DNA from: a virus
Lineage: Duplodnaviria; Caudoviricetes
Reading direction: 5' to 3' (one strand)
IMG/VR virus record: IMGVR_UViG_3300030099_003747
Span: 1 to 50,160 of that record
DNA length: 50,160 bases
The notes beneath the pieces were generated by a model. It saw only the letters and a list, made by a program, of their open reading frames with translations, ran no database searches and was not told where the DNA came from. Position 1 is the first letter of the stretch. Each line of letters begins with the position of its first letter. The translations under genes and the position numbers were made by a program. Below, piece after piece: positions 1-50,160 of this stretch.

Positions 1-123
1 GCACCATCCACAAGCTGACGGACAGACGTGTCAATGCGTTGCTTACGAAGCTTGCGGGCACGCTTTTTGAGTTCTTGCTTTTGTAGCGTCTGATCAACCC
101 TACGAGACCCAAGCCTTTTTTGG
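1..123. repeat. Terminal direct repeat copy 1 (circular assembly overlap)
   Basis: Matches 50038-50160 except at 54/50091 (G/A) and 69/50106 (G/T). Confidence 0.97.
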
Positions 124-27187: not shown

Positions 27188-27556
27188 ATGCGTATCAATG
27201 ACTGCAAAATCATAAGCGAGACAATCTATCCCGAGAAGATGCACTCGGGCCGCGATTACTATGTGGACATAGAGAGCTTGGGCAATGACAATACAAGCGA
27301 GATTGTGGACGCCGTTAGCCGTCGCGTAGAGACAATGCGTAGCATCCAAGCCACACGGGACTCACTACCCACAATGGGCGATGCAATGAGGGATTACACG
27401 CTCTTTGCATGGGTCTCCAGAAACGCATGGACCGGTATCACTTGGTACCTTGAGCTTGGCAATGACGGGCGCTATTACATTGACCCCCACATGTTCAATG
27501 ATGAGGAGCCATGGTGCATACGAGGGCGGGACACTGGGGAAGTGTATTGTGCATAG
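27188..27556 (+). CDS. Hypothetical protein, 122 aa
   Basis: AAGGA upstream of ATG 27188; followed by a terminator. Confidence 0.65.
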   Translation: MRINDCKIISETIYPEKMHSGRDYYVDIESLGNDNTSEIVDAVSRRVETMRSIQATRDSLPTMGDAMRDYTLFAWVSRNAWTGITWYLELGNDGRYYIDPHMFNDEEPWCIRGRDTGEVYCA

Positions 27557-27579
27557 CACAATAAACAGACATTGCAGAT

Positions 27580-27621
27580 AAAAGAAAAGCCCCTTGGGAT
27601 TGCTCCCTCGGGGCTTTTTTT
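27580..27621. terminator. Bidirectional terminator between convergent early operons
   Basis: AAAAGCCCC...GGGGCTTTTTTT with an A-run on the left and a T-run on the right. Confidence 0.8.
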
Positions 27622-27638
27622 GTGTCTGTATTCGCGCG

Positions 27639-27983
27639 CTATTGCTTAGGTATCTCACCCTCTTGCATTAGGCGGACAGCCTCTTTCAATACGCATACGC
27701 GGTACGATAGCGTGTCAGGTCCGCGCCTGCCTGGACCCCGCTTGTAATCGCCCCAACACATATTGCCGAGCCGGTCCCATGCTTCGACACTTAGGCCGCT
27801 CTGATACCTGCCATGGAGTGTATCGTTCAATGCGAAGTCAATATGTTTCCATCCCCGAATGGTATCGATGACCCTCTCATAATCAGGGTCATTGCAAAGC
27901 ATGTCTTTGAACTTCTTACGATGTTCATTGAGTGAATGCTCGTCGAGCTTCTTTCGCCATGGCATTTGGTATGTCTCAGACAT
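27639..27983 (-). CDS. Hypothetical protein, 114 aa
   Basis: AAGGA RBS before ATG 27983. Confidence 0.6.
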   Translation of the reverse strand: MSETYQMPWRKKLDEHSLNEHRKKFKDMLCNDPDYERVIDTIRGWKHIDFALNDTLHGRYQSGLSVEAWDRLGNMCWGDYKRGPGRRGPDTLSYRVCVLKEAVRLMQEGEIPKQ

Positions 27984-28194
27984 TGCTATTCCTTTCGTAT
28001 ACAGGGACACAGGCACCGGACGGCAATACGTGGTCAACACGGCCATTGAAAGCGTAGCCGCGAGACACGTCCCAATCAACAGACTCAACCGCGTCAATCA
28101 ATCCAGAGCGTCCATAGTTAGACCACGAAACATATTCTGGAGGACCGCCAGTGTTTACTTTTAATGTGACAATATATTGTACAACTGTTTTCAT
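27976..28194 (-). CDS. Hypothetical protein, 72 aa
   Basis: ORF coupled to the downstream gene. Confidence 0.45.
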   Translation of the reverse strand: MKTVVQYIVTLKVNTGGPPEYVSWSNYGRSGLIDAVESVDWDVSRGYAFNGRVDHVLPSGACVPVYERNSNV

Positions 28195-28223
28195 TTTATA
28201 AACTAACTTTGTAGTTTGATTAT

Positions 28224-28252
28224 GAAGAGACACCGGCCCCCGAAGGGGCCGG
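28224..28252 (-). terminator. UUCG hairpin/terminator after the DUF932-like gene
   Basis: CCGGCCCC-TTCG-GGGGCCGG followed by TGTCTCTTC. Confidence 0.65.
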
Positions 28253-28263
28253 CATTTGTATGA

Positions 28264-30078
28264 TTATGCTTGTGCAACAAGAGCAGGAACAAGCAAGCCA
28301 GCTTCGCGCTCCAATACATCACGAGCACAATCATCAACGAGGTGCTGATGGGCCATGCGTGTGATTGCATTGATTACATCCTGGACACTATCGCCACCGC
28401 CCTGGTCTGCATATGAATCGAACATCATTTGCACAGCAGCATCACGACCAATGCCGGATGCAACCTTGCCTTCGGCAACGAGCTTCTTGATAAGGACTTG
28501 CGATGCATTGTCACTACCAGTTGCGTAGTCATCGGTGTCCTTCGCACTGATTACATCCATTGATGCAGTCTGTCCGAGGATGCCCCAGTCCTGAGCGAAT
28601 CGCTCCATTGCAGGGCGTGCATCTTGCATACCCTTGCGGATGGCCTCCATCTTCTGTTGCATATTGCCCTTGTGGATTGCACGCATGATCTCATTCTTCT
28701 TGGAATGCAGAATGATCATGTTGAGACACTCGTTCCAGAATGCAATGGCGCTACCGTTGATTGAGCCGCCCCCACGGTCGTTCGCCTTGAACCGGAACCC
28801 AACCTCATACAAGTCACCTGCACTGAAGTCCGTCAGGTCTGCCGGAGCATGCATTGTCAGGTCCATTGTGAAGTTTGTAGTCTCCGAGTTGTATTGAATC
28901 TCTGCCTTGTATGGCATGTCATCAACAGCAAGCTGAATCATGTTTGCAACCTTGTCTGCATCGTACTCTTGGTAGCCAGTACCAACGACGCCGAAGATGC
29001 TACGAGCACCGTCGTTCAATCGAGTGCGGAACTTCATGACCTTGTCGTGACTACAATGACGTCGCATGTGCTCATTGAAAACATATGCTCGGACATCTGG
29101 GTCAAGTGACTTCATTGTATGAAAGCCGCGAGGAAACAATGCATCAGCGGAAGACATGTCCTCACCAACACCAAAGCGTGATGCTGCAAGCAGTTGCTTT
29201 AGACCATGCTCCTCCAATCGGAAGCTACCCTGGCTGGTCAACAGCATTCCATCGTCACGCATTTGCAATCCAGACAGCGGAAGGTCAACGCTCATCCGGT
29301 CTTCGCTTTCAATAATGCTCATGAACTGCCTTGCAGCAGTGTATGCATCAGGCTTCTCATCCCAAACAGCACGAGCAGCAGAAAGGTTATCGTAACCAAG
29401 GTCAACCACAGTAGTGCCGCGCTTGTACCCAGCTTTTGTGATTGAGATGTTCTTGGTAGGACGTGACAGACCAAGGTCTGCAAGCCATGCATCATGCTTT
29501 TGCTGACGCTCGACTGCAACCTCACTGACCTCGATTGCATTAACAGTACGCTTATCGCCATGATTGCTTACGCCGTTAGCACCAGAGCCCCAACCGCCTT
29601 GGAATACTGGAGTATCCTCACGAACTTGAGGGTCTTCAGACATTGCAATCTCAAGACGTGACGTGGTTGCATTAGCAATGTCGATGCTGTTCATGTCTTC
29701 AGATAATGAATCCATTGCATCATTTGTCTGCTCATACTGTGACTCCATGTCATCAACGACTTGCTCTGTAACGGGAGGGTCGTCATTGCATACAGCATCC
29801 ATGAAGTCATCGACTGAACTGGTATCAAGCAATGCATCGATGTCATCCATAGACATTGTGCTTACGTCATCTTGCTTTGGCTCATCCTTTGGAATGTGGA
29901 TGGTCTCACTCTTAGCGACCGCCTCTGTAATACATCCATCTGTGCGCAAGCCTTGCCAAAGGCCAGCCCTGTAATCAGTGAAGAATGCAAGCTGCGCTTG
30001 GTCCCTGGCGTCTTCCTTTGTAACGCCGTTGAAGGTTTGTTGAGTGCCGTCGGGTTGTGTGTAGATGAATGAATGCAT
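28264..30078 (-). CDS. DUF932-like protein with long acidic N-terminal extension, 604 aa
   Basis: GFRFKANDRGGGS...ECLNM...IHKG pattern; start reassigned to ATG 30078. Confidence 0.65.
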   Translation of the reverse strand: MHSFIYTQPDGTQQTFNGVTKEDARDQAQLAFFTDYRAGLWQGLRTDGCITEAVAKSETIHIPKDEPKQDDVSTMSMDDIDALLDTSSVDDFMDAVCNDDPPVTEQVVDDMESQYEQTNDAMDSLSEDMNSIDIANATTSRLEIAMSEDPQVREDTPVFQGGWGSGANGVSNHGDKRTVNAIEVSEVAVERQQKHDAWLADLGLSRPTKNISITKAGYKRGTTVVDLGYDNLSAARAVWDEKPDAYTAARQFMSIIESEDRMSVDLPLSGLQMRDDGMLLTSQGSFRLEEHGLKQLLAASRFGVGEDMSSADALFPRGFHTMKSLDPDVRAYVFNEHMRRHCSHDKVMKFRTRLNDGARSIFGVVGTGYQEYDADKVANMIQLAVDDMPYKAEIQYNSETTNFTMDLTMHAPADLTDFSAGDLYEVGFRFKANDRGGGSINGSAIAFWNECLNMIILHSKKNEIMRAIHKGNMQQKMEAIRKGMQDARPAMERFAQDWGILGQTASMDVISAKDTDDYATGSDNASQVLIKKLVAEGKVASGIGRDAAVQMMFDSYADQGGGDSVQDVINAITRMAHQHLVDDCARDVLEREAGLLVPALVAQA

Positions 30079-30133
30079 CGTACTTTCCTGTTGAATGCCG
30101 AGCTTTGAAGACCGGCTGTTGGGTTGAGGAGGG

Positions 30134-30181
30134 TGGGATGTTCCACCTCCCTTCACTTCGTTCAGGGAGTGGAACACCCCA
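30134..30181 (-). promoter_or_regulatory. Conserved 48-nt hairpin element, copy 1
   Basis: Same architecture and loop as 33200..33247, with compensatory stem changes. Confidence 0.7.
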
Positions 30182-30198
30182 TCTCCCCTGGTTTCGGA

Positions 30199-30555
30199 CT
30201 ACTCCTCATACGTGTTCACGTATTTAGCTGTGATTGTATTCTTCATTTGCCATAGAGGTAGCTCGACAAACGAGCCGTCTGGTCTCACTCTCCTGCCCGT
30301 GTCTTCAAAGAATCCACAATCATCAAGAGCCTGCAATAGACCGGGCGACATGTTGTACCAGTTCACAAAGAACTGATCACCATCAATATCAAGTGACGGA
30401 ATGTTCTTGGACACAACTGAGTACGGGAAGCCATCCTCGCCGTGAAGCATTACAGCAAGGCGATTGTTATCCACATATGTTCCGACAGATATAATCAAGT
30501 TCAAGTCATTGAACTGCATGTGACCAATAGGACGTGGTGAGAATCTACTTTCCAT
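30199..30555 (-). CDS. DUF4313-like protein, 118 aa
   Basis: TYVDNNRLAV...PYSVVSKNI...FEDTG...GSFVELP pattern. Confidence 0.6.
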   Translation of the reverse strand: MESRFSPRPIGHMQFNDLNLIISVGTYVDNNRLAVMLHGEDGFPYSVVSKNIPSLDIDGDQFFVNWYNMSPGLLQALDDCGFFEDTGRRVRPDGSFVELPLWQMKNTITAKYVNTYEE

Positions 30556-30745
30556 CGATAAGCTCCATTGCTTTTTCTATTCTTGTAAGGGCACCATCGA
30601 TGTTGCTCCTCACTTGATACTTACGCCAGTCATCCCATCGTTCAGAGCCACATGTTTTACATGCTTTCTTTGTCACTCTGATTGAGTACTTGATGTCTGA
30701 CAACACTGCTCTTGCCATTTCAAGGTCTTCCATTGTGCTTGGCAT
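30545..30745 (-). CDS. Hypothetical protein with CxxC
   Basis: GGAGGTGAGTGATG junction; CKTC. Confidence 0.65.
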   Translation of the reverse strand: MPSTMEDLEMARAVLSDIKYSIRVTKKACKTCGSERWDDWRKYQVRSNIDGALTRIEKAMELIDGK

Positions 30746-31728
30746 CACTCACCTCCCGTCATGTCGTCTTGCCAAAACTTCAGCAGGCTTACTAAAGCAG
30801 CTTCGCGCGTTGCTTTGTCTGCCCTTGGGTAGTGCATTTCGATTACATCGAGATGCTTGTTGGCGTACTTACGATCTTCAATCTCTCTTTCCTTACGCCA
30901 CCGTTCGATTCGCTCTTCACTCTCACGCTTCAGTTGCTCTTCACGCTCAATCTCTTCTTGTGTTGGTGGCTTCGGCCCGACTGGTTTGCGCTTGGTTCGC
31001 TTGCGTTTGAAGCGTGCTTCTGCAATCCTTCGACAGTGAGGGCACACTTTGTAAGTGCCAACCTCTTCAGGCTGTCCCTGATAGGCGGCATCAATAATCA
31101 TATTCAGATCATTCTCGAAGCCCCCTGACCCATTGCCACAAAGCGATGACCAAAGCTCACATCCACCACTTGTTAGGTGTATGGTTTTTACTTTTGTATT
31201 GGAGCGATGTTCTCCAACCCCGATACCTCCGCCCTCTTCAATGTACTGCTCTAAAACTGGGCATGAAATATGAACTTCTTTCAAGGGATCTCTGCATCCC
31301 AACCAAATATCATCGCCATCTTCATTCTTTCCCCAACAGTACCTAAAATGTATAGATCTATATTGACCCTTTTCTGCTGGCGGATGCTCTTTCTCAAGTC
31401 GGGCACGACAATCCTCAAAATCAGATTCTGTCCAACTCATTCGGCTTTGTCTGTATAGTGCGCTTTCTATGCATTCTTGTCGGAACTTTTGTTGTTTGAC
31501 CAAATCCTCTTCACCATCAGACTCAAGCGAAAACCGTACAGTAGTAGCCATCTTGCCATTTACAGGTATAGGGCAAGGGTTTAGCGACATAAGAGCATCA
31601 ACGTCTTCTTGTTTATCTATGTCCTCTGCCCACAATGGGTTGTGTTTGTCCGGGTCAAATCTCGACGGTACGTGTTTCTCAATGCCAAATGCATCAAGCA
31701 CTTCACTTGCATTCGATTCGTAGGTCAT
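30745..31728 (-). CDS. Hypothetical protein, ~327 aa
   Basis: Coupled junction; H/C ligands (LCG...CPHC). Confidence 0.7.
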   Translation of the reverse strand: MTYESNASEVLDAFGIEKHVPSRFDPDKHNPLWAEDIDKQEDVDALMSLNPCPIPVNGKMATTVRFSLESDGEEDLVKQQKFRQECIESALYRQSRMSWTESDFEDCRARLEKEHPPAEKGQYRSIHFRYCWGKNEDGDDIWLGCRDPLKEVHISCPVLEQYIEEGGGIGVGEHRSNTKVKTIHLTSGGCELWSSLCGNGSGGFENDLNMIIDAAYQGQPEEVGTYKVCPHCRRIAEARFKRKRTKRKPVGPKPPTQEEIEREEQLKRESEERIERWRKEREIEDRKYANKHLDVIEMHYPRADKATREAALVSLLKFWQDDMTGGE

Positions 31729-31943
31729 CACTCACCTTCCCTTTCAAGCCATTCATTGAGGCCAACAGTACAAGCCTCCTCGTGTTCTTTGACTGTGAGT
31801 TCAACAGGACTGTCATTGAATGTGTCGATAGCCCACTCAATATCTACAAAGCCGGCGTCCTTGTCGTAGTACCCACACACATTGATTTCCATCTGCTCAT
31901 CGGTTGAATCAATGTCCCTATAGATTGTGTAATAGAAGGTCAT
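31728..31943 (-). CDS. Small acidic hypothetical protein
   Basis: Coupled junction with strong RBS. Confidence 0.65.
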   Translation of the reverse strand: MTFYYTIYRDIDSTDEQMEINVCGYYDKDAGFVDIEWAIDTFNDSPVELTVKEHEEACTVGLNEWLEREGE

Positions 31944-32236
31944 CACTCACCTCCTTGGGCTTTGGCGATTGCTTTACGGGCACACAGTGCTGCCCACATT
32001 TCGCCGGGTTGCGAACGCTGCTCCAAATATGGGAGCAATGTTTCCAGCGCATCCAATAGGTCGGGTGCCGCCGCAATCAGTCGAGCGTTGGCCTTCACCT
32101 CCTCGACAGCCATGTCCCAATCTTCTTCTGCTCTGGATACTACGACGGAATATCCTCGACTCGGCATGTCAACGTGCCAGATGTCCGAGGGGTAGCCTTC
32201 CGACGCTTCCCAAGGTCCAACTGTATGCTTACTCAT
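31943..32236 (-). CDS. Conserved phage protein (KHT.GPW...ANARLIAAAPDLL family), 97 aa
   Basis: Characteristic motif. Confidence 0.8.
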   Translation of the reverse strand: MSKHTVGPWEASEGYPSDIWHVDMPSRGYSVVVSRAEEDWDMAVEEVKANARLIAAAPDLLDALETLLPYLEQRSQPGEMWAALCARKAIAKAQGGE

Positions 32237-32742
32237 ACCTCACCTCCTTGCTTCCAGTCCCACCATTGCGGTGGGTCTGAGTGTTTCCACGTTGCAAAGT
32301 CACACTTCTCCATGTTGTAGAAGTATCGGTATGACTCAACTACGTTGTCTGTCTTGTACTCGTCTGGCATACAGAGAGGATGCGGAGTCTTTCTAAGGCC
32401 AGTAATGAGACTCGTTGCGTCTAATACTTTCAGGCACTCATTGATAATCGACCTGCACTTGTGGTCTTTCTTCTCTGCATTCTTCTTTTGGAATCGCAGC
32501 AAGTACTCATCGCACAGTGCAATCCCGTGGTCATACAACCAAAGCCAGTTGCCAAGCGTCTCCCCCGTCCAGATAGTACAGGGGTGATGCTTGTGGGTTG
32601 ACTTGTATGGGCCAACGCCACCATTGTTATTGATAGCGGTCGATAGCATTTGTGCTGACTCAAGAGCCATCTTTACGACATGCTGATCACAAAGCATTTG
32701 TGCTGCTTTTCGTGGGTGTTCATCAACGACAAAGATGTTCAT
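32233..32742 (-). CDS. Pyrimidine-dimer DNA glycosylase (DenV)-like family protein
   Basis: MNIF...CDQHVVKMALESAQML...YKSTHKHHPCTIW...YRYFY. Confidence 0.75.
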   Translation of the reverse strand: MNIFVVDEHPRKAAQMLCDQHVVKMALESAQMLSTAINNNGGVGPYKSTHKHHPCTIWTGETLGNWLWLYDHGIALCDEYLLRFQKKNAEKKDHKCRSIINECLKVLDATSLITGLRKTPHPLCMPDEYKTDNVVESYRYFYNMEKCDFATWKHSDPPQWWDWKQGGEV

Positions 32743-33152
32743 CACTCACCTCCCTTTGCAGCATCTTCCTTTGCATATTGAAGGCACCTTTCTGCACGGT
32801 CAGAGATGTGCTCAATGAGACGCTTCTTGTATTGAGCATCAGTGAGGCGGGTTGCATTTGTCCACAAACCAATGTGTGCTTTCACCTCTTCGAGTGTGAT
32901 CCTTCTTGCAACCAGATGCCCCTTCTTTGGGTCAAACATTTGAGCAACAGGCTCACTGGCAAAGCGAGCCATCTCATACCGCACGTATACTTTCTCGTAG
33001 TTCTTTGCGGTGATGTCACTGATACCAATGAACCATGTTCCATTGACAAGTGCTTCAGTAGCCTCTTGCAAACGTCTCTGACCATGCTCATCCTTCTCGG
33101 TCCAGCATGCTGTTTTGTAGTTTTTTACTTTCTCAATGTTCCATCGAAACAT
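32742..33152 (-). CDS. Hypothetical protein, 136 aa
   Basis: First gene after hairpin copy 2. Confidence 0.7.
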   Translation of the reverse strand: MFRWNIEKVKNYKTACWTEKDEHGQRRLQEATEALVNGTWFIGISDITAKNYEKVYVRYEMARFASEPVAQMFDPKKGHLVARRITLEEVKAHIGLWTNATRLTDAQYKKRLIEHISDRAERCLQYAKEDAAKGGE

Positions 33153-33199
33153 TTTGTTTTCCCTTGCCGGACTTTGCCGACGGTTTGGTTTTGACGAAG

Positions 33200-33247
33200 T
33201 GGGTCTCTCTATCCCCCTTCACTTCGTTCAGGGGGTAGAGAGCCCCA
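33200..33247 (-). promoter_or_regulatory. Conserved 48-nt hairpin element, copy 2
   Basis: See copy 1. Confidence 0.7.
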
Positions 33248-33257
33248 AGTCTACGGC

Positions 33258-33914
33258 TCAGCCAGCCTGCCTTTTCCAGCCCGCGTAATCCCACCTGCGT
33301 GTAGGGACCGGCTTGATTCCAAGCTTGATACGCCTACGCCTTACAAACTCAGTAGGAACATTGATATCCATAGCAATAGAGTGGTCGCTATCTACGCCCA
33401 GGCGATCAATCACTGATGCTATTGCAGATATTCTGCGTTTGTGTTCTTGACTTTTGTGAGCTGGAATATTGTATTTCTTGCGAAGCTTAGAGATTGCAGA
33501 TGCAGATATGCCAACTGTTCTTGAAAGCTCAGCATCAGATATCTTGCCTAAGTTGTTCAGTATAAACTTAGAGTCATCATCATCCAGTCGATACAATATC
33601 CCAGAGTTTGGCTTTTCTATTTCAAGCGCTGCTCTGTATTGGCGAACACGCTCTCTGGATATTGAGTACTTGTCTGCAATCAAAGAGTCGCTTTTGTTTC
33701 CAAGCATTTCGTACATGCCTGGATACTTTTTACGAAGCGTTCTTCTGCAATGATCTTTGTTATTGCTTGGGCTGCATCGAGGAATACGCAAACGCCTTCT
33801 GATTCTTTGAATGGTGACTGCGCTTACTCCTGCAATAGACGCAAGCTCAGAGTCGTATATCTGCCCAAGCAATGCATAGTGTTCATCTGATAGAACGATT
33901 TTCTTCCTGCCCAT
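33258..33914 (-). CDS. DNA-binding protein with four tandem HTH-like repeats
   Basis: LG..[SY]D..[LI]A....S...[VI]...R..L.I repeated four times. Confidence 0.75.
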   Translation of the reverse strand: MGRKKIVLSDEHYALLGQIYDSELASIAGVSAVTIQRIRRRLRIPRCSPSNNKDHCRRTLRKKYPGMYEMLGNKSDSLIADKYSISRERVRQYRAALEIEKPNSGILYRLDDDDSKFILNNLGKISDAELSRTVGISASAISKLRKKYNIPAHKSQEHKRRISAIASVIDRLGVDSDHSIAMDINVPTEFVRRRRIKLGIKPVPTRRWDYAGWKRQAG

Positions 33915-33921
33915 AGTACCC

Positions 33922-34842
33922 TCACTCTTCATATGCAAGGTCTACTGTACTGTAAGGATCGCTATTTGTCAACCGATTAAGTGTAATACCTCCTGCGGTT
34001 TCAAACTGTATTCCAGTTTCAAAGGAGTCATTTAGCGTTCTTATGTACTGTGATCGGAACAGCCTTTCGATGTCTCCCACCAACTCCCACCGACATGTAT
34101 AGCCCTGGTTCCACCACTGGGGGCAGAGCCTGGACAACAGAGACACCGACTGCTGATAGATAGCCAGTGCTGCCTCTCTTGAAACAATCGGAACACGCAT
34201 TTCAATCATTGCAGCAAGCTCTATTAGTTGAGCAGCTTTGTTTGCTTGTAATGAAAGAACAAGTGCAGTCACTGTAGCGTGACGTATTGTTATTATCCTT
34301 GGGTACAAAAGATCTTTTGTGTCCCAGTTAGAAGAGACACCTCTTGCAAAAGTCTCTGCGGACACCTCATAGCCAAGGCTTGCCGCGTCCAGTATGCGTT
34401 CTTTTACGAGGGCAAGAACTATCTTTCTATACCTTGTGTTGGATTTCTCTATGACATCCAGTTCATTCTTTGGCGACAACCTATCTATGATTGTGCGAGA
34501 TATTGCATTCGCCCACGGGGTCAGGTCTTCTTCTGATAGCCCAAGGTTTGAAGGTACATTGTGTTCAAGCTTTGCACCATCGTACCTCCACAATCGCCCG
34601 TCTCTTCCAAGGAAGATGTCGCGCCTGCCGATACAAACACCAATATAGTAGTTGCTGATACCTACCTGTACGATTCCTACGTTAAGTATTCTCCATCGCA
34701 CACGCTTCCTTTCACGCTGGTAGTACCAACCAAGCGGAATGCCAAGCTTTCTAAGGTCTGTCCTTCCTGCAATAAGTGCCTTTGTAGGAGACACCTCACC
34801 GTTTTTTTTGTTTGACAACTCCTGCCGCCTCCAGGGTTTCAA
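33922..34842 (-). CDS. Hypothetical protein, ~306 aa (start uncertain)
   Basis: Long ORF filling the gap between two regulators. Confidence 0.6.
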   Translation of the reverse strand: MKPWRRQELSNKKNGEVSPTKALIAGRTDLRKLGIPLGWYYQRERKRVRWRILNVGIVQVGISNYYIGVCIGRRDIFLGRDGRLWRYDGAKLEHNVPSNLGLSEEDLTPWANAISRTIIDRLSPKNELDVIEKSNTRYRKIVLALVKERILDAASLGYEVSAETFARGVSSNWDTKDLLYPRIITIRHATVTALVLSLQANKAAQLIELAAMIEMRVPIVSREAALAIYQQSVSLLSRLCPQWWNQGYTCRWELVGDIERLFRSQYIRTLNDSFETGIQFETAGGITLNRLTNSDPYSTVDLAYEE

Positions 34843-35059
34843 TACAATCCCTTAATGAAAACCCAAGAACACAAATGATTTTGATAAGTACATTTAGTGA
34901 TGGTGTTCTTGATCCAGACTCGTAGTAGCACACAGCCGCTGGTGTCACGCCCAGGTGGCTCGCAAGCGTCCGCTGAGACATGCCTGCGTCACGCCTGCGT
35001 TCCCGGATTTTTCGAGAAACCACAAGGCTAAAGCCTTGTGAGACCTGGTCTTTCGACAT
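34796..35059 (-). CDS. XRE-family HTH transcriptional regulator
   Basis: IRERRRDAGMSQRTLASHLGVTPAAVCYYESGSRTPS; AGGAGG RBS. Confidence 0.88.
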   Translation of the reverse strand: MSKDQVSQGFSLVVSRKIRERRRDAGMSQRTLASHLGVTPAAVCYYESGSRTPSLNVLIKIICVLGFSLRDCIETLEAAGVVKQKKR

Positions 35060-35158
35060 CTTGCTTGCCCTCCTGTTCACCGCGAGTTAACCTGCCCTGG
35101 CCGACAGAGCAAGCGGCGAATCGAAACGAACCGAAACTAAGCAGTTGAATAAGGGCTG

Positions 35159-36565
35159 ATGATGAATGACAACTTAAAACCAATGCAAACCGAAAGGCAG
35201 TTACTTGGTACTCTTTTAGTATCTAATGGTTCTAAATTAGTACTAGTTGATGACATACTTAATACTGAGTGTTTCTCTAGTGAGTACCATAAGAATATAT
35301 TTAAATGGGTACAATCTAGAGTAGCTGAAAATAAGTCAGCAGATATGGTATCACTCATTGAAAGTGTAGGTAGTAATACCATTAAACAGTATGGTGGTGC
35401 TGCTTATGTATGTGGTTTGGGTGATGACACAGTAGCTGTTGATGGCATTCTTCGTAAGTATGCTGAACGCATTGAGTCTCACTCAAGACTTCGTCGATTG
35501 CAGCTTGCTGCCAAGATTATCATTGGCAATCTAGAAGAGCTTAGTATGGAGCCGTCGGACATCATAAGTTCCGCCGAGTCTTCTGTATTGGATATCAGTT
35601 CCGACTCTGGCAAAACAAAAGGCATCCTTTCAATGCAAGAGGCTGCGGCAGAGCGCAAAGCATCTTGGCGTAGGATTATGTCTGGTGAAGAGGTCGAGTA
35701 TGTTCCAACAGGGTTTGGTACATTCGACGAACATTATGTTGGGTGGCCGCGTGGTTACATGACAATCATCGGTGGTCGCCCAGAGATTGGTAAGACAATG
35801 TTCTTGGTGTCTGCTGTTCTGCGTGCAGCAATGTCTGGCATTCCACAAGGTGTTCTCTCTATTGAAATGCCAAGGTGGAAGCTTGTAGACAGGATGGCAT
35901 CTATCGTTGCTGGTGTGTCAATCTCAGCTTTGCATGAAAAGAGTGAGGCAGAGGCAGAGCTTGTATTAGATGCAGCCGAGCAACTTGCAAAGGAGCCTAT
36001 CTATATTGACGACAACTCGAATACTGCTGACTCTGTCGAGTCATCTATTCGCAGGATGGTTCGTCAACATGGGTGCAAAGTAATTTGGGTTGACTACTTG
36101 CAGTTGATAAGACCCCCGTCACATCTACCATCAAATCGTAATCGGTCTTGGGAGGTGGACGAGATTAGCGAGACGCTTCGTCGTTGTGCAAAGCAAGAGA
36201 ACGTAGCGATTGTATCTATGATGCAACTGAACCGGGGCACTGAGGAAGTGTATACAGAGGGTCGCAAAGGTGTCCCCAGTTCCCACCACTTCCGTGGTTC
36301 AGACAAGCCATTGCATGACGCTGCTCTTGCTTTTGGCGTATACAGGCAGTTTCAATACAAGAAGCCGAAGAAGCCGATGGGGGATGAGTACACAAACGAG
36401 GAGCTTGCAGCCAGAATGCAACCCTTTGAACTCATCTCACTGAAGAGCCGAGACCACTCAAAGAAGGACGTGGTCCTCTATTCACAGTTGAACGTGCAGC
36501 GTGTGTTCGATGCCTTCGACGACGGCTTTCAGAAGCCAGACTGGACACCACATTTTAGTGCTTGA
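35159..36565 (+). CDS. dnaB: DnaB-like replicative helicase
   Basis: ERQLLG N-domain, Walker A GRPEIGKT, SIEM, VDYLQL, QLNR, RGS. Confidence 0.93.
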   Translation: MMNDNLKPMQTERQLLGTLLVSNGSKLVLVDDILNTECFSSEYHKNIFKWVQSRVAENKSADMVSLIESVGSNTIKQYGGAAYVCGLGDDTVAVDGILRKYAERIESHSRLRRLQLAAKIIIGNLEELSMEPSDIISSAESSVLDISSDSGKTKGILSMQEAAAERKASWRRIMSGEEVEYVPTGFGTFDEHYVGWPRGYMTIIGGRPEIGKTMFLVSAVLRAAMSGIPQGVLSIEMPRWKLVDRMASIVAGVSISALHEKSEAEAELVLDAAEQLAKEPIYIDDNSNTADSVESSIRRMVRQHGCKVIWVDYLQLIRPPSHLPSNRNRSWEVDEISETLRRCAKQENVAIVSMMQLNRGTEEVYTEGRKGVPSSHHFRGSDKPLHDAALAFGVYRQFQYKKPKKPMGDEYTNEELAARMQPFELISLKSRDHSKKDVVLYSQLNVQRVFDAFDDGFQKPDWTPHFSA

Positions 36566-41241: not shown

Positions 41242-41315
41242 TGGGGTGAAGCGCCACAGGCAGGTGCATCGGGTTGTTACCCCGACCGTTGTTGGTTCGA
41301 GTCCAACCGCCCCAG
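41242..41315 (+). tRNA. trnN: tRNA-Asn(GTT)
   Basis: Acceptor TGGGGTG/CGCCCCA, D-stem GCGC/GTGC, anticodon arm TCGGG-TTGTTAC-CCCGA, T-arm GTTGG-TTCGAGT-CCAAC, G discriminator. Confidence 0.88.
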
Positions 41316-46180: not shown

Positions 46181-46614
46181 TACCCCCTCCAGTTGACGCG
46201 AATGTTTGCAGTAGGTGTGCCAGCATCAACCTTGGCTACCACATAAATCTTTTGTCGACTTGAGTTTGATACCCCAGTGTCCAATGTGTAGTCATTGTCT
46301 ACAATCAATGCAGCTCCACCCTTAGTTGCTGTTGTTGCACCAACAGTAATGCTTTGAGATGCCCCAGATGTGGTTCCTGGAGTAATTGGAACATCTCCTG
46401 CTGAGTCGCGAGCAATGTATGCCGTCACGCTGGACGCGCTCGACTTGGCCGTAAACTCAAACTCAATGGACTGGATATTACAAGTATCCGGGAAAAAGTC
46501 CGAATCTGGTGAGTTTGTGAGGTCTTGAGTTACCTCAAAAACTTGGAAGTTTCCGGTCAGTGACGCACCGTGATGGTACGAAAAGGACGCCTTGCTCCAA
46601 GAACGAATGCTCAT
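46180..46614 (-). CDS. Putative structural protein, 144 aa
   Basis: Thr/Ser beta-rich; ATGA overlap with the giant gene stop. Confidence 0.55.
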   Translation of the reverse strand: MSIRSWSKASFSYHHGASLTGNFQVFEVTQDLTNSPDSDFFPDTCNIQSIEFEFTAKSSASSVTAYIARDSAGDVPITPGTTSGASQSITVGATTATKGGAALIVDNDYTLDTGVSNSSRQKIYVVAKVDAGTPTANIRVNWRG

Positions 46615-49600
46615 TGTTGTTTCCTGATGGTCTGGATTTCAAACTCGCCAGTAATACCTGCCCGCCTAAAGGCTTCTTTGTACCGCTGGTTTATTTCATA
46701 ATCAATACGCGCTTTTCGCGCCTGTGGATTGTCTGCGATGATTCTAATACCGCCCATTGCATCTGCGATTTTAAGCCAACTGGGTATTGGCTCATACTCA
46801 GATGTTGAGTACTGAAGACGCATGTCGGCAGGAAGCCTGTCCAAGTATGTCATATTGTACAGCATTGCGACACCCGCTGCGTCATTCAAAACTCTTGACC
46901 ATGGGTGATTTGATATCAAATAGTTTGCTGTTCCATTGATGTGTACGTCGTCCATGAACATGCCTTTCTTTGCATTCCATGGTTGCGTGACCGTGATTCC
47001 AGCCTCATTTACGATGTAATCAGCAACCCCCTGTCCAATAATGGGCATTCTTCTGACGCCATCAATGACCTCCATTGCTCGTCTACCGTTTGTTGCGTCA
47101 ACTATTGGCATGTCCATGAAGGTGTTGTGCTTGAGGACAGCCAACTCCATAAATGTTTTAAACATATAGTGGGTCTGTCCAAGCATACGAAGATGTTGCT
47201 TTCTGTTGTCGAACCTTTCTTCGCCAATGGGAGAACTGATTGCCTGCTGAATCATGTTCATTTGTTCAAAGAACGCTTCTTGAGGTAGCCCAAGACCTTC
47301 AACATAGTACCCAGGCTTTCCTGGCACCGGGAACCGAATCATGTTCCTGGCGTGTTCGTCTCTCAGGGCCAACTGTTGAGGCGATGAGCCGTACCTTGGC
47401 ACATACGGAATACCAAGGGTTTCAGCGTTGTACTTTTCTACAAGCTCTGGACCCTGATGGATCAACAGACGCTGCATTTGTGAGTAGAAAACAGGGTTCT
47501 CTTGCAGCATCTTTAGCTGCAAAACAACATTCTTCTGAGTCCATGTGAAGAACGGGAAGACGAGCCTCATCCAGTCCTTTTGGAATGGAGTCAGGTCGTC
47601 ATAGTCAAACAAGAACTTGTCTACTTGCTTGGCTGCTGTGTCAAAGCTTCCAGTCTTCTTCGTATTTACAATAAATGTAGCTATTCTGGCTTGGTTCTCG
47701 ATGTTTCTACCGACAACAGAGCCAAGCTTCTTGGGGATGCCAATAGGAAGAACAGAACCAGCGATAAGGTTCGGCACTCCAGTGATGACGGCGTCTTCAA
47801 ACAGGCTACCGAACTTCTTTGCCTTATCAAAAACAGCATTTTGACCAGCAGATGTGTAGATCTCGGACATCGACTGTTCAAAGGTGTTGATGTCAATGTA
47901 TTGCTGCATGCCTCCAGCAATGACACCCCTCTCCTGGAGTACCTTGATTGAATCATCGGCGGTTCTCATTACTCCATCGCCAATGTCGTACATTGAGCCT
48001 GGGCGATCGAGTTGATTGATGATGTCTAGTCCAATCTGCCTCTTCTTGTACTGAAATGCAGACTCTGCTGAGCCACGTCGCATAGACATGACCTTTTTTG
48101 CAGCCTCAATAGACCCATACCTGTCATAAACGTGGGACAAGGTAGCAAGTCGGCCAGCATCAGCGGCGACAGCCGGGCCCATTGACGCAACACCAGAATC
48201 CAACATCATTGAGAACTGGTTTGAGACGTAGTTTCTGACGTGGAATGCAGCAGCAACAATAGTTGTGCGAAGCTTCCAGAAGTTGTTGAATCTTCTCAGT
48301 GCTTGCACAGGAAGGCTCTTGGCGAACTCGCTATTTTGCCACCTTGGAGAGAAAATATCGTCCATTGACTGCTTTACAGTCGCAGGAACGTACAGCTTCC
48401 ACATTTCTGCGCCCTCTGAATAGAACGCCTTCAATGCTGCTGGGTCTTTTACGGTCAGACTGCTTTTCAACTCTGATGAACGAGCATTCATTTCCTTTGC
48501 TACTCGTGACCAAGCGGACAAAGAAAGTTTTTCAGACTCGTTGATGAGCGTGCTTGCAATATCTTCAGGACTCTTGCCTCTCTTAGAGAGCAGCAGTCCC
48601 TTTTTCAGCTTTTCTTCCTGCAAGAAAGCATTGTATGCAGTGACTGGGTCATAAAGCTCACGACCCTTATTGAAATCATCCATCTTGATTTTGCCAAGAA
48701 GAGCAATGATTTCATCTGCTGCCCTGACTGATGGCGTTTCTCGGATGTACTTCGCAAATTGGTCCTCTCTCATCTTTTGAGGGTACGAAGCAATTTCTTC
48801 AAACTGCCTGAGAATGTCTTCATCAATCATGCCAGCCCAATCACTTCGACTGCCGTTGACTATGATGTCGTTACTAAGACTCTTGACTGCCCTATCGAAC
48901 AGCGGGACGTAGCCCATTTCTGCTGCCCTCTCATAGGCTGGAATCATTGGTACGAGATCGTCAGTTACACGCTCAAGAGCAGCATCAAGCGCCTCAAGCT
49001 CACGCTTGCTTGCCTTCTCTCTTACCAAAACATCAAGAGCATTGGGAGGAATGTCCTCTAAAGGAACATCTCCGACGAGATTGTACTTTGTCGCAAGCTT
49101 TTCAAGCATATTGTCGTATACAGGCTTTGAGCTAATCGGCTTCAGCACGCCGCCTGCAATCATCGACAACATAAAGTCCTGACCAGCAATAGACTTTGCT
49201 GCACGACCGTAGTTAATCATCAAGTTTGTGGGGCTAATGCCCATTCTTGTGCTGCCACCAGACGCATTTATCTCTGCTATTGTCCCAGAAATAAGCCTTC
49301 GCTTCTTCTGTGGCATGTCTCTAGATATAGAAGACGCCAGACTCGACAGGTTCCCCATGTACTCTGTAGACAGGGGGCGCTCTCCTGGGCGCATATCTGC
49401 GGGGAGCAGCTTTTTGTGCGGAACATAGTCAATAACGCCCCAGAATCGCATCATTTCTTCGGGGCTCTTGACCAGATTCATGCCGTACTTCTCATACAAG
49501 TCTTCGTAGTGCTTTACTAGTGACTTCAAAGCATCACGAATCGGGCGAAGCTCCTCTGGAATCTCACCCAATCGTTGGCCAATAAGGCTCTTGTACCGCT

Positions 49601-50160
49601 CTTGGATTCCAATGTACTGGTCAGTCATCTTTGGAATCTTTGGAGTGTCTGCAAGGGCACCGTAGGCCACCAGAAACGCATCCTTTTCATCTAGCGTTGA
49701 AAAGACATCCTTGAACTTGTTGTAGACATCGATCTCCCAGTCCTTCAAGGCAACGCCAAGGGCTTCTTTTTTGGGGTCTACATTTGGAATCTTTAGCTTT
49801 GGAATCTCTTCCTTAAGCTGCTTGGACATTTTCTCGAACTCTTCTTCAAGCAATGTCCTGCCACGAACCTTTGCCCTCTCAGCAGCTTCACCCGTCTTGA
49901 TCTTGGTGTTGTAAGAGTTTTTTGTAAACGACTCTGCTAGATCATCCTTGAGCTTTGTGTAGATGTCTCCTGGCGGGAGGTCCATTGCCTCATCCAGCAT
50001 CTCTCGAACACGGCTTTTTGCTGTGTCAAAGTCTGGAGCACCATCCACAAGCTGACGGACAGACGTGTCAATGCGTTGCTTACGAAGCTTACGGGCACGC
50101 TTTTTTAGTTCTTGCTTTTGTAGCGTCTGATCAACCCTACGAGACCCAAGCCTTTTTTGG
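46611..50160 (-). CDS. Giant internal virion/ejection protein, C-terminal part
   Basis: FHVRNYVSN and FLFDYDDLTPFQKDWMRLVFPFFTW motifs typical of large podovirus internal proteins; open at the window edge. Confidence 0.88.
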   Translation of the reverse strand, partial: QKRLGSRRVDQTLQKQELKKRARKLRKQRIDTSVRQLVDGAPDFDTAKSRVREMLDEAMDLPPGDIYTKLKDDLAESFTKNSYNTKIKTGEAAERAKVRGRTLLEEEFEKMSKQLKEEIPKLKIPNVDPKKEALGVALKDWEIDVYNKFKDVFSTLDEKDAFLVAYGALADTPKIPKMTDQYIGIQERYKSLIGQRLGEIPEELRPIRDALKSLVKHYEDLYEKYGMNLVKSPEEMMRFWGVIDYVPHKKLLPADMRPGERPLSTEYMGNLSSLASSISRDMPQKKRRLISGTIAEINASGGSTRMGISPTNLMINYGRAAKSIAGQDFMLSMIAGGVLKPISSKPVYDNMLEKLATKYNLVGDVPLEDIPPNALDVLVREKASKRELEALDAALERVTDDLVPMIPAYERAAEMGYVPLFDRAVKSLSNDIIVNGSRSDWAGMIDEDILRQFEEIASYPQKMREDQFAKYIRETPSVRAADEIIALLGKIKMDDFNKGRELYDPVTAYNAFLQEEKLKKGLLLSKRGKSPEDIASTLINESEKLSLSAWSRVAKEMNARSSELKSSLTVKDPAALKAFYSEGAEMWKLYVPATVKQSMDDIFSPRWQNSEFAKSLPVQALRRFNNFWKLRTTIVAAAFHVRNYVSNQFSMMLDSGVASMGPAVAADAGRLATLSHVYDRYGSIEAAKKVMSMRRGSAESAFQYKKRQIGLDIINQLDRPGSMYDIGDGVMRTADDSIKVLQERGVIAGGMQQYIDINTFEQSMSEIYTSAGQNAVFDKAKKFGSLFEDAVITGVPNLIAGSVLPIGIPKKLGSVVGRNIENQARIATFIVNTKKTGSFDTAAKQVDKFLFDYDDLTPFQKDWMRLVFPFFTWTQKNVVLQLKMLQENPVFYSQMQRLLIHQGPELVEKYNAETLGIPYVPRYGSSPQQLALRDEHARNMIRFPVPGKPGYYVEGLGLPQEAFFEQMNMIQQAISSPIGEERFDNRKQHLRMLGQTHYMFKTFMELAVLKHNTFMDMPIVDATNGRRAMEVIDGVRRMPIIGQGVADYIVNEAGITVTQPWNAKKGMFMDDVHINGTANYLISNHPWSRVLNDAAGVAMLYNMTYLDRLPADMRLQYSTSEYEPIPSWLKIADAMGGIRIIADNPQARKARIDYEINQRYKEAFRRAGITGEFEIQTIRKQQ
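50038..50160. repeat. Terminal direct repeat copy 2
   Basis: 121 of 123 positions identical to 1-123. Confidence 0.97.

What the first reader, a model, noticed from the sequence alone, without database searches (positions are those of the whole stretch)
30134..33247. Duplicated 48-nt hairpin with compensatory changes and invariant GA-AC-GAA-GT-GA apex
Seen on the + strand: copy 1 is TGGG A TGTTCCA C CTCCCT TCACTTCGTTC AGGGAG TGGAACA C CCCA (30134-30181). Copy 2 is TGGG T CTCTCTA T CCCCCT TCACTTCGTTC AGGGGG TAGAGAG C CCCA (33200-33247). Geometry is identical (4 bp, 1x1 mismatch, 7 bp, 1-nt bulge, 6 bp), with five compensatory pair changes and an identical apex. Both are intergenic, ~50 nt upstream of minus-strand starts (30078, 33152), and weaker similarity (TGCCG..CTTTG..GAC) continues toward the RBS. 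On the minus strand the apex reads T-GA-AC-GAA-GT-GA-A. Established: C-GAA-G triloops and tandem sheared G.A pairs are unusually stable in DNA. Inference: an undescribed cis-element acting as ssDNA/cruciform (hairpin promoter, priming or recombination signal) or as a protein-binding RNA leader for the early genes.
Basis: partly seen in the sequence, partly recalled or inferred. Interest (0 to 1): 0.78.

Follow-up and report, generated by a model that had tools for sequence, protein, structure and literature searches.

The report
Widespread capped hairpin in phage early operon
Two intergenic hairpins in a marine phage carry the same 15-base self-folding cap that also tops unrelated hairpins in many other phages, sits beside origin-like repeats inside phage replication genes, and forms the core of a high-copy repeat in bacteria of many phyla, so it looks like a general single-strand signal that has not been described.

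Summary
Both 48-nt hairpins lie exactly where stated, differ by five compensatory pairs and share an identical apex. The window has only these two copies (0.07 expected by chance).

The element is not specific to this phage. The apex, C-TGA-RC-GNA-GY-GAA-G, is a cap made of a 2-bp ministem, a GNA triloop and two G·A pairs. The same cap:
- tops unrelated 12-26-bp stems between genes in many viral contigs;
- lies on the antisense strand of phage replication-initiator genes, next to short tandem repeats and 11-nt iterons (28-29 loci);
- is the core of a 27-nt repeat found in many bacterial phyla, with up to 385 copies in one genome.

Five of nine related loci keep the hairpin upstream of the same gene, with covarying stems and a free middle loop base.

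No Rfam family and no sequence-searched paper describes it.

The cap follows the published rule for extra-stable DNA mini-hairpins. I favour a strand-specific single-stranded-DNA signal for priming or replication (about 0.35) over an RNA leader or punctuation hairpin (about 0.3). No available data separate the two.

The parts
30134..30181 (-). Capped hairpin, copy 1 (about 17 pairs plus the cap)
   Evidence: Orthologues in L274, L275, L278, L279 and L282.
30151..30165 (-). Cap of copy 1: CTGAACGAAGTGAAG (closing C-G, U-A, two G·A, ministem A-T and C-G, GAA triloop)
   Evidence: Cap rules come from variants.
30097..30116 (-). Small second hairpin (GCCGG...CAAAG...TCGGC) in the leader of the 604-aa gene, preceded by a C/A-rich, G-poor tract (30117-30133)
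   Evidence: Alignments A1 and A2. Folds of relatives. Kept even in L276/L277, which lack the large hairpin.
33200..33247 (-). Capped hairpin, copy 2
   Evidence: Orthologue in L274 at 4341.
33217..33231 (-). Cap of copy 2, identical to copy 1
33166..33181 (-). Small second hairpin of the copy-2 leader (GTCGG-CAAAGT-CCGGC), after a C/A-rich tract (33182-33199)
28264..30078 (-). 604-aa gene headed by copy 1. Matches phrog_1362 (unknown function). DUF932 is a lead only.
   Evidence: Homologues at 47-77% identity in 9 loci. A phrog_1362/DUF932 gene also follows a capped hairpin in the unrelated L033, and a DUF932 gene in L067.
32742..33152 (-). 136-aa gene headed by copy 2. In related marine phages it is replaced by other sequence while the hairpin and leader stay.
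   Evidence: joints 32750->33150 and 32750->33154 with 237-239 other letters. In L274 the hairpin directly precedes the next gene family, phrog_624.
30199..30555 (-). Gene that ends 18 nt before copy 1
33258..33938 (-). 226-aa helix-turn-helix protein gene that ends 11 nt before copy 2

Best explanation
What it is (shown): the two hairpins are paralogous copies of a widespread 'capped hairpin'. A variable stem carries a fixed 15-nt cap, C-TGA-RC-GNA-GY-GAA-G. The cap folds on itself into a 2-bp ministem with a three-base loop, stacked on two G·A pairs. The conserved unit is the cap plus about 4 bp. The long lower stem differs between genomes.

How it most likely works (inferred, about 0.35): the cap is a self-folding DNA mini-hairpin. 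Whenever the minus strand (the strand with the sense of the early genes) is single-stranded, the cap nucleates the hairpin and keeps it free of single-strand-binding protein. That could happen on a displaced strand, on a lagging-strand template, or after supercoil-driven extrusion. The hairpin then serves as a fixed, orientation-specific landmark where synthesis of a primer or short transcript begins, or where the replication machinery assembles. This would make it a single-strand initiation or origin-type signal. The same module sits beside iterons inside replication-initiator genes of other phages.

In this window the two copies occupy the only two non-coding gaps of the leftward early operon, 2-5 kb from the DnaB, Erf and SSB genes.

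Not shown: any priming, any replication start, or which polymer (DNA or RNA) is read.
For: 1. The cap obeys the DNA mini-hairpin rule.
- C-GNA-G is closed by C-G. G and A are fixed and N is free: A or T in relatives, and A, C, G or T in bacterial copies.
- The ministem covaries, AC/GT to GC/GC.
- The review PMC13037366 (passages read) gives GCGNAGC as extraordinarily stable in DNA. It reports that a related mini-hairpin sequence (of the GCGNNAGC type) binds SSB poorly. It places mini-hairpins at the primase start of G4, St-1 and alpha3, in RSF1010 ssiA, and in N4 early promoters.

2. Origin-like context in other phages.
- 28 of 63 distinct viral hairpins lie inside long antisense ORFs. 19 loci have a DUF1376-type initiator and 6 a second family.
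- The polarity is fixed. 26 of 29 have tandem arrays within 250 nt on the 3' side of the cap: 5-8-nt periods starting 2-21 nt away, and in many of them 11-nt-period arrays starting about 20-70 nt away. Only 9 of 29 have arrays on the 5' side.
- The short stems covary inside coding sequence.

3. Stems are almost purely Watson-Crick. In 30 intergenic hairpins with 575 pairs there are only 5 G/U juxtapositions, all in the window's own family. There are 7 purine-purine against 1 pyrimidine-pyrimidine mismatch on the cap strand.

4. Low copy number. There is 1 copy in each of 5 of 5 other phage records examined whole, two of them at least 98% complete, and 2 in this window.

5. Position near replication or recombination genes: here, in L067/L063/L046, and in L010 in a 540-nt gap of the replication module.

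6. As DNA, the minus strand folds better than the plus strand: -18.9 and -16.4 against -15.8 and -13.9 kcal/mol.
Against: - No iterons or tandem arrays lie next to the window's copies.
- In the intergenic class the cap strand is nearly always the sense strand, just upstream of a start codon. 30 of 35 have a same-strand ORF starting within 130 nt, against 19 of 35 for the opposite-strand control. In some (L028, L065, L076) the 3' arm holds the Shine-Dalgarno sequence or the start codon. That fits an RNA leader at least as well.
- Some phages carry 3-7 copies, one per gene or small gene block (L034, L065, L039, L099). That looks more like gene-expression punctuation than origins.
- Some copies lie in structural or packaging regions (L020, L006, L099, L110).
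- The conserved C/A-rich tract, small hairpin and ribosome-binding site downstream of the window's copies look like an mRNA leader.
- The lagging-strand argument assumes that replication runs in the same direction as transcription. This was not tested.
- No RNA or replication data exist for any carrier.
Confidence: 0.35

Rival explanations
1. RNA-level punctuation of the early operon. The hairpin folds in the polycistronic transcript just after the upstream stop codon. There it acts as a processing site, a 3'-end protection site, or a pause or factor-dependent termination (nut/rut-like) site. It also sets up the downstream leader (C/A-rich tract, small hairpin, ribosome-binding site). The cap would be a fast-folding nucleus or the binding site of a conserved RNA-binding factor.
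For: - Sense orientation and position between a stop and the next start.
- These are the only two non-coding gaps in a roughly 7-kb operon whose other genes abut or overlap.
- The Shine-Dalgarno sequence or start codon is sequestered in the 3' arm in L028, L065 and L076.
- The downstream leader is conserved, and the hairpin plus leader are kept when the downstream gene is swapped.
- There are 3-7 copies, one per gene block, in some phages.
- The G-poor, C-rich tract after the hairpin resembles Rho-binding sequence (direct reading; the resemblance is recalled).
- Precedents: PeSL terminator/promoter cassettes in T4-like phages (PMC4122927, abstract and passages read).
Against: - The cap is antisense in 28 replication-gene copies.
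- Unpaired bacterial copies show no sense bias: the upstream gene has the same sense in 17 and the opposite sense in 16.
- There is almost no G·U in 575 stem pairs.
- A 2-bp ministem with a GNA triloop and free N matches the rule reported for DNA in the passages read. I know of no such rule for RNA (recalled).
- No U-tract follows, and no terminator-like site was called at either hairpin.
- No promoter-like site lies nearby.
- One copy per genome in 5 of 5 records is odd for a general terminator or processing signal.
Confidence: 0.3
2. A selfish or REP/MITE-like mobile hairpin. The cap is the recognition core of a repeat that spreads within and between genomes. The phage copies are insertions, perhaps later domesticated, with no dedicated function for the phage.
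For: - The bacterial 27-nt repeat GTCAYY-cap-RRTCTC occurs in 114 of 136 instances from a wide range of phyla.
- Copy numbers are 363, 385 and 49 in three genomes, against 0 for the reversed-pattern control.
- Inverted pairs have a fixed polarity: 41 against 6.
- Close relatives of the window phage differ in presence or absence: L276/L277 lack it, and one relative keeps only one copy.
- Copies within a genome resemble each other more than copies between genomes.
- 3 of 12 small GIY-YIG nuclease genes have the repeat within 50 nt upstream. This includes the only copy in a 0.7-Mb genome.
Against: - Orthologous position and compensatory stem changes are kept across relatives whose neighbouring protein is only 65-77% identical. 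That implies selection in place.
- Stems are unrelated between phage families while only the cap is shared. A simple transposed unit would not produce this.
- No autonomous element was found. Three roughly 3.5-kb intervals between cap copies in one genome are unrelated to each other.
- There is no link to Y1/RAYT transposases: 0 of 5.
Confidence: 0.15
3. An N4-type or Frpo-type single-stranded-DNA promoter. An extruded hairpin would be recognised by an injected or host RNA polymerase to start early transcription.
For: - N4 early promoters are mini-hairpins with GGA or GAA loops (review passages).
- Frpo hairpins drive early genes and primer synthesis in plasmid leading regions (PMC11541004, passages read).
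- Capped hairpins stand directly or shortly upstream of ArdC-type anti-restriction genes (L034, L028, L065) and DUF932 genes (L033, L067).
- A 2,684-aa ORF follows the structural genes in the window, in the position that the virion polymerase gene holds in an N4-like phage.
Against: - The GNA loop is on the coding strand, whereas N4 reads the hairpin on the template strand (recalled from the N4 literature).
- The middle loop base is free here, whereas the review says the N4 polymerase contacts it.
- phrog_2206 did not match the window's giant ORF pieces, and an N4-like polymerase domain used as query found nothing in the window.
- phrog_2206 rang in 0 of 10 other carrier records (no positive control rang).
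- No T7-like polymerase in 0 of 5 records (again nothing rang anywhere).
- No RNA-polymerase motif was seen in the giant ORF by simple patterns.
- The stems hold no -35/-10 pair (and direct reading).
Confidence: 0.07

Closest known systems
DNA mini-hairpins (GCGNAGC type) at single-strand initiation sites: G4/St-1/alpha3 complementary-strand origins and RSF1010 ssiA
   Same: A C-GNA-G loop closed by C-G with a free middle base. Location in replication-initiation regions. Orientation-specific action in single-stranded DNA. A related mini-hairpin sequence binds SSB poorly (review PMC13037366, passages read).
   Different: Here the ministem is only 2 bp (A-T/C-G, or G-C/C-G in variants). It is extended by two G·A pairs into a fixed 13-15-nt cap. 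The carriers are double-stranded tailed phages and bacterial chromosomes. No primase dependence has been shown.
Phage N4 virion-RNA-polymerase hairpin promoters
   Same: A small hairpin with a GGA or GAA loop upstream of early genes.
   Different: In N4 the hairpin is read on the template strand and its central base is contacted. Here the GNA is on the coding strand and its central base is free. No N4-type polymerase was detected.
Iteron origins lying inside the initiator gene (lambda ori in gene O; recalled)
   Same: In 28-29 loci the cap sits in the inter-domain linker of an initiator gene, beside short repeats and, in many, 11-nt iterons, in a fixed order. Lambda's origin also has a palindrome beside its AT-rich region (recalled).
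   Different: The window's copies are intergenic and have no iterons. The initiator families (DUF1376 and one other) differ from lambda O.
REP/BIME-type intergenic palindromic repeats
   Same: The bacterial 27-mer is intergenic and often occurs in inverted pairs, with up to hundreds of copies per genome.
   Different: No RAYT (Y1) gene is flanked by it: 0 of 5. The same core is shared across many phyla, whereas REP sequences are lineage-specific (recalled). The phage copies keep only the cap.
PeSL composite terminator/promoter cassettes of T4-like phages
   Same: Repeated intergenic stem-loops upstream of variable early genes. Gene cassettes are exchanged next to them (PMC4122927; here).
   Different: PeSLs carry a sigma-70 promoter and conserve the stem, not the loop. 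No promoter-like site lies next to the window's hairpins. The cassette joints in relatives fall mostly at a different repeat, the gene-junction motif.
Frpo/ssi single-stranded-DNA promoters of plasmid leading regions
   Same: A hairpin in single-stranded DNA used both for early genes and for primer RNA (PMC11541004 passages and its reference title).
   Different: Frpo mimics -35 and -10 boxes in a long stem on the template strand. The present stems are 12-26 bp, hold no such boxes, and the cap is on the coding strand.

Membership tests
Any Rfam family | Match at or above the family's gathering score | tested here: not met
   The window gives only a tRNA. Twelve bacterial loci carrying the repeat give only a tRNA. 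An E-value search of 30000-30300 gives only far sub-threshold microRNA and snoRNA noise.
Intrinsic (Rho-independent) terminator | GC-rich hairpin followed directly by a U-tract on the transcribed strand | tested here: not met
   The scan calls no terminator-like site at either hairpin on either strand. The hairpins are followed by CCCTCCTCAACC and CTTCGTCAAAAC. The operon's own end has a separate UUCG hairpin at 28233-28252.
DNA mini-hairpin motif (GCGNAGC) | GNA loop closed by C-G, with G and A fixed and N free | tested here: met
   GAA here. GTA in L274, L275 and L279. One exception, AAA, in L278. GAA, GCA, GGA and GTA in bacterial copies.
DNA mini-hairpin motif (GCGNAGC) | Second pair G-C | tested here: not met
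   The window has A-T. The G-C form occurs in L099 and in many bacterial copies, changed on both sides.
DNA mini-hairpin motif (GCGNAGC) | Unusually high thermal stability and nuclease or SSB resistance as DNA | not testable with these tools
   The nearest-neighbour model treats the cap as an open loop. Melting experiments are needed.
N4-type hairpin promoter | Hairpin with the purine-centred loop on the template strand, upstream of the start | tested here: not met
   The GNA loop is on the coding strand of the flanking genes. The template-strand rule is recalled.
N4-type hairpin promoter | A virion RNA polymerase is encoded | tested here: inconclusive
   phrog_2206 did not match the window's giant ORF pieces, and an N4-like polymerase domain used as query found nothing in the window. 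The family rang in none of 10 carrier records, but no positive control rang either. The 2,684-aa ORF has unknown function.
Iteron-type replication origin | Array of direct repeats (iterons) next to the element | tested here: not met
   No tandem array lies near 30134 or 33200. The feature is met in the related class inside initiator genes: 26 of 29.
Lambda-type nut site | boxA-like conserved sequence a few bases upstream of a short boxB hairpin, once per operon | tested here: not met
   The two copies share no motif upstream of the hairpin (alignment A1). There are two copies in one operon. The boxA consensus is recalled.
REP/REPIN elements | A RAYT (Y1 transposase) gene flanked by the repeat | tested here: not met
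   0 of 5 Y1 transposase loci in three repeat-rich genomes have the cap within about 1.5 kb.
PeSL cassette | Stem-loop followed by a sigma-70-type early promoter | tested here: not met
   Only 2 promoter-like sites were called in 27500-35500, and neither is at a hairpin.
Frpo single-stranded-DNA promoter | -35 and -10 boxes formed within the stem | tested here: not met
   The stems are 16-17 pairs and hold no such hexamers.
RNase III processing site (T7 early type) | Cleavage by RNase III in a stem of about 20 bp or more | not testable with these tools
   The stem length would allow it. No RNA data exist.

The most novel reading that the evidence does not exclude
The 15-nt cap is a universal, physically determined 'hairpin nucleator' for single-stranded DNA. 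Phages use it as the start or assembly landmark of their replication origins and of early-region signals. Bacteria of many phyla carry it as the core of a high-copy repeat. That would be one undescribed class of DNA-level cis-element shared across phages and bacteria. It would be defined by its fold (C-GNA-G on Y-GA-R) rather than by a protein-specific sequence. Snap-back priming from the cap might even create the long unrelated stems found beneath it.
Probability: 0.25. Interest if true: 0.85.

Novelty: new variant of a known kind. Interest (0 to 1): 0.72.

Why it matters
If the cap is a general single-strand signal, it gives three things:
- A sequence tag for locating replication origins or priming sites in uncultured phages and prophages. 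At present these are almost never annotated.
- A link between phage origins, early-gene cassettes and a very abundant, unnamed bacterial repeat family that probably generates many spurious 'hypothetical proteins' in metagenome-assembled genomes.
- A natural test case for whether extra-stable DNA mini-hairpins, known mostly from a few model replicons, are used widely in nature.

If it instead acts in RNA, it would be a new, very widespread hairpin cap with a conserved partner still to be found.

Tried and rejected
- Near-identity search of 28000-34000 against named phages: no match.
- The 48-nt hairpin against named phages: only 7 marginal hits. One lies in the N4-like Agrobacterium phage OLIVR1, where a cap variant on a 3-bp stem occurs once. 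This is too weak to use.
- Six named phages with DUF1376 initiators: none has the cap.
- DNA search of one initiator-gene locus against named phages: no match.
- A full bacterial repeat unit against plasmids: 1 of 72,556 records.
- Public sequencing runs: no RNA holder listed, so nothing can be said about expression.
- Contigs of four marine runs were laid on the stretch. Relatives cover both hairpin regions, but only the best-supported differences were printed, so conservation inside the hairpins could not be scored.
- Strand asymmetry of whole-arm folds: noisy and mixed. I replaced it with the helix-restricted count.
- An autonomous element behind the bacterial repeat: three roughly 3.5-kb intervals between cap copies are unrelated.
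- RAYT link: none.
- Annotation of the 604-aa, 306-aa, 226-aa and 328-aa proteins: no PDB, Pfam or NCBIfam match of use. The protein atlas gives only a DUF932 lead, carried by 24% of members of the third-ranked cluster.
- Earlier findings of this scan were not open to the session.
- Supplements of the papers were not consulted. Supplementary Table 2 of PMC11541004 (Frpo sequences) might bear on the Frpo comparison.

Full report
**1. The observation**

The window is a whole, about 99% complete viral record of 50,160 bp from marine metagenomes. The two hairpins are at 30134-30181 and 33200-33247, as described.

On the minus strand, the strand of the flanking genes, each hairpin reads from the loop outwards as follows:
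- a 13-nt loop, TGAACGAAGTGAA;
- 5 bp;
- a one-base bulge on the 3' arm;
- 7 bp;
- a single non-Watson-Crick juxtaposition (G/T in copy 1, G/A in copy 2);
- 4 bp.

Five pairs differ on both sides between the copies. The loop 13-mer occurs only at these two places, against 0.07 expected.

Both hairpins lie between a stop codon (18 and 11 nt upstream) and the next start (56 and 48 nt downstream). They fill the only two non-coding gaps of a leftward operon. The operon runs from a Cro/CI-type regulator gene (start at 35080) to a terminator-like hairpin at 28233-28252. Its other genes abut or overlap.

Similarity between the two copies continues for about 50 nt beyond the hairpin. It covers a C/A-rich, G-poor tract and a small second hairpin just before the ribosome-binding site.

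**2. Related phages**

The 604-aa protein downstream of copy 1 has relatives in nine viral loci at 47-77% identity.
- Five loci (L274, L275, L278, L279, L282) have a capped hairpin at the same place. L274 also has the orthologue of copy 2.
- Four loci (L276, L277, L280, L281) have none.
- The loop's middle base changes (GAA to GTA), and once the first base changes (AAA in L278). The stems change by compensation.
- Over 8 sequences, 9 of 20 pairs change on both sides. 96.9% of cells pair, against 46-59% in slid controls.
- The small downstream hairpin is kept even where the large one is missing.

Contigs of four other marine runs cover both hairpin regions. They show that neighbouring genes are swapped as cassettes. 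The gene after copy 2 is replaced, from about its start codon, by other sequence.

**3. The cap is not private to this phage**

Of 117 distinct contexts, 69 have at least 3 further contiguous pairs flanking the 15-mer. By my own arithmetic, (6/16) cubed, about 5% would do so by chance. The stems are unrelated between contigs and reach 26 bp.

Variants fix the rule C-TGA-RC-GNA-GY-GAA-G:
- GTA loops in L039 and L119;
- a ministem changed on both sides (AC/GT to GC/GC) in L099.

In 1.15 Mb of fetched sequence, near-matches (1-3 mismatches) with stems of at least 5 bp numbered 17. The reversed core gave 1.

Two contexts stand out.

*Intergenic long hairpins, as in the window.*
- They have 12-26 pairs and lie mostly on the sense strand just upstream of a start. 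30 of 35 have a same-strand ORF within 130 nt, against 19 of 35 for the opposite-strand control. The ORF test is crude.
- Copy number is 1 per genome in 5 of 5 records examined whole. It is 2-3 in some and 5-7 in L039 and L099.
- Downstream genes are mostly unknown early genes. There are four exceptions. ArdC-type anti-restriction genes follow in L034, L028 and L065. DUF932 genes follow shortly downstream in L033 and L067. The phrog_1221 family of the L067 gene is also present in L063 and L046. The window's own phrog_1362 gene also follows a hairpin.
- Some copies lie near replication genes (L067 family, L010). Others lie near structural or packaging genes (L020, L006, L099, L110).

*Short-stem copies inside replication-initiator genes.*
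- 28 of 63 distinct hairpins fall in this class. The cap is always on the antisense strand.
- It lies in the linker between the domains of a DUF1376-type protein (19 loci; PF07120 in L030) or of a second family (6 loci).
- The reading frame is constant, yet the flanking 4-7 bp covary.
- On the 3' side of the cap, 26 of 29 have tandem arrays. A 5-8-nt period starts 2-21 nt away. In many loci an 11-nt period with 2.5-6.5 copies starts about 20-70 nt away. Only 9 of 29 have weak arrays on the 5' side.
- By analogy with lambda (recalled), this is the layout of an iteron origin lying inside its initiator gene.

**4. Bacteria**

- 114 of 136 instances lie in a fixed 27-nt context, GTCAYY-cap-RRTCTC.
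- They often occur as an inverted pair with a fixed order: the partner is downstream in 41 and upstream in 6.
- Five genomes hold 1, 5, 49, 363 and 385 copies. The reversed pattern gives 0. All four loop bases occur in the middle position.
- Unpaired copies are intergenic and show no sense bias. The flanking-gene arrangements count 8, 12, 9 and 4.
- Small GIY-YIG nuclease genes have the repeat within 50 nt upstream in 3 of 12 cases. One of these is the sole copy of a 0.7-Mb genome.
- Y1 transposase genes have it in 0 of 5 cases.
- I found no autonomous element.

**5. Is it known?**

No Rfam family matches. Full-text searches for the cap, the repeat and peptides it would encode found only unrelated primers, or nothing. 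Papers outside the searched library could still describe it.

**6. Mechanism**

What is shown:
- a conserved, covarying hairpin whose invariant part is a self-pairing cap;
- a fixed polarity relative to neighbouring repeats or genes;
- occurrence in origin-like settings, in early-gene leaders and in a bacterial repeat.

What is inferred, for DNA:
- The cap's fixed and free positions match the published rule for extra-stable DNA mini-hairpins. The review states that these occur at the primase start of G4-type phages, in RSF1010 ssiA and in N4 early promoters. It also states that one such sequence binds SSB poorly.
- The Y-GA-R context for sheared G·A pairs in DNA is recalled, not tested.
- Stems are almost free of G·U: 5 in 575 pairs, all from one family.
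- Bacterial copies ignore gene orientation.
- 28 copies are antisense inside a gene.

These points favour a DNA-level, single-strand reading. I take the hairpin as a landmark for priming or replisome assembly on the strand that would be displaced, or would be the lagging-strand template, if forks run with transcription. That direction is an untested assumption.

Against this:
- The window's copies have no iterons.
- They sit exactly where an mRNA punctuation element would sit.
- They are followed by a conserved leader.
- Some phages carry one copy per gene block.

I therefore give the single-stranded-DNA signal about 0.35, an RNA-level punctuation or leader element about 0.30, a selfish REP-like hairpin about 0.15, and an N4- or Frpo-type promoter about 0.07. 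Polarity and the lack of a detectable polymerase count against the promoter reading.

**7. Verdict**

The apex is a widespread cap that I could not find described. The function in this phage is unresolved between DNA and RNA. The experiments that would decide it are simple: melting and extrusion, an ssi assay, and transcript-end and origin mapping.

Noticed in passing
window 1-4505 and 46611-50160, minus strand: The two open-ended ORFs join in frame across the ends of the record into one 2,684-aa ORF without a stop. The record is therefore probably a circularly permuted complete genome. The ORF follows the structural genes, in the position the virion RNA polymerase gene holds in an N4-like phage. 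It has no family match and no simple polymerase motif. It contains an internal repeat at residues 1468 and 1509.
   Followed up: partly
window 30742-30759, 31725-31742, 31940-31957, 32233-32250, 32739-32756: An 18-nt gene-junction repeat (ribosome-binding site plus overlapping stop/start, minus-strand GGAGGTGAGTGATGA) marks five gene boundaries. In related marine phages whole genes are skipped or replaced at or beside these copies (joints 30742/31726, 31937/32737, 31939/32233). This suggests cassette exchange by recombination at the junction motif.
   Followed up: partly
genome loci L127-L245; genomes G003, G005, G004: A 27-nt repeat, GTCAYY-CTGARCGNAGYGAAG-RRTCTC, occurs in bacteria of many phyla, often as inverted pairs 10-70 nt apart. 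There are 363, 385 and 49 copies in three genomes. I found no name for it.
   Followed up: partly
L253 (G001), L256 (G002), L251 (G004): Small GIY-YIG nuclease genes start 2-30 nt after a copy of the 27-nt repeat in 3 of 12 cases. In a 0.7-Mb genome this is the only copy. This is a possible link between the repeat and a nuclease.
   Followed up: partly
L030:5228-6163 (minus) and 27-28 similar loci: DUF1376-type and a second type of phage replication initiator carry, in their inter-domain linker, a fixed series on the antisense strand: capped hairpin, then 5-8-nt tandem repeats and, in many, 11-nt iterons. These are likely origins lying inside the gene.
   Followed up: partly
L033:1877-2962, L067:2068-3222, window 28264-30078; L034:546-1460: Genes with a DUF932 domain follow capped hairpins in L033 and L067, which have unrelated stems. 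The window's 604-aa gene shares the phrog_1362 family with the L033 gene. ArdC-type anti-restriction genes follow hairpins in a further family.
   Followed up: partly
window 35080-35159: The 78-nt divergent region between the Cro/CI-type gene and the DnaB gene holds a 10-nt direct repeat (CGAACCGAAA, 2.1 copies, 35117-35137). It may be an operator.
   Followed up: no
window 41242-41315, plus strand: A tRNA gene, the only Rfam match in the window.
   Followed up: no
L039 (record G016): This 9.75-kb record is an inverted duplication of itself (classed as inverted terminal repeats). Its five capped hairpins therefore appear on both strands. This is probably an assembly artefact.
   Followed up: no
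L165, L190, L042, L059: In some bacterial and viral loci the cap is flanked by runs of CTGACC on the 5' side and GGGAAG on the 3' side. Paired, these would form helices with repeated G·A pairs. In L190 this lies between ribosomal protein genes.
   Followed up: no
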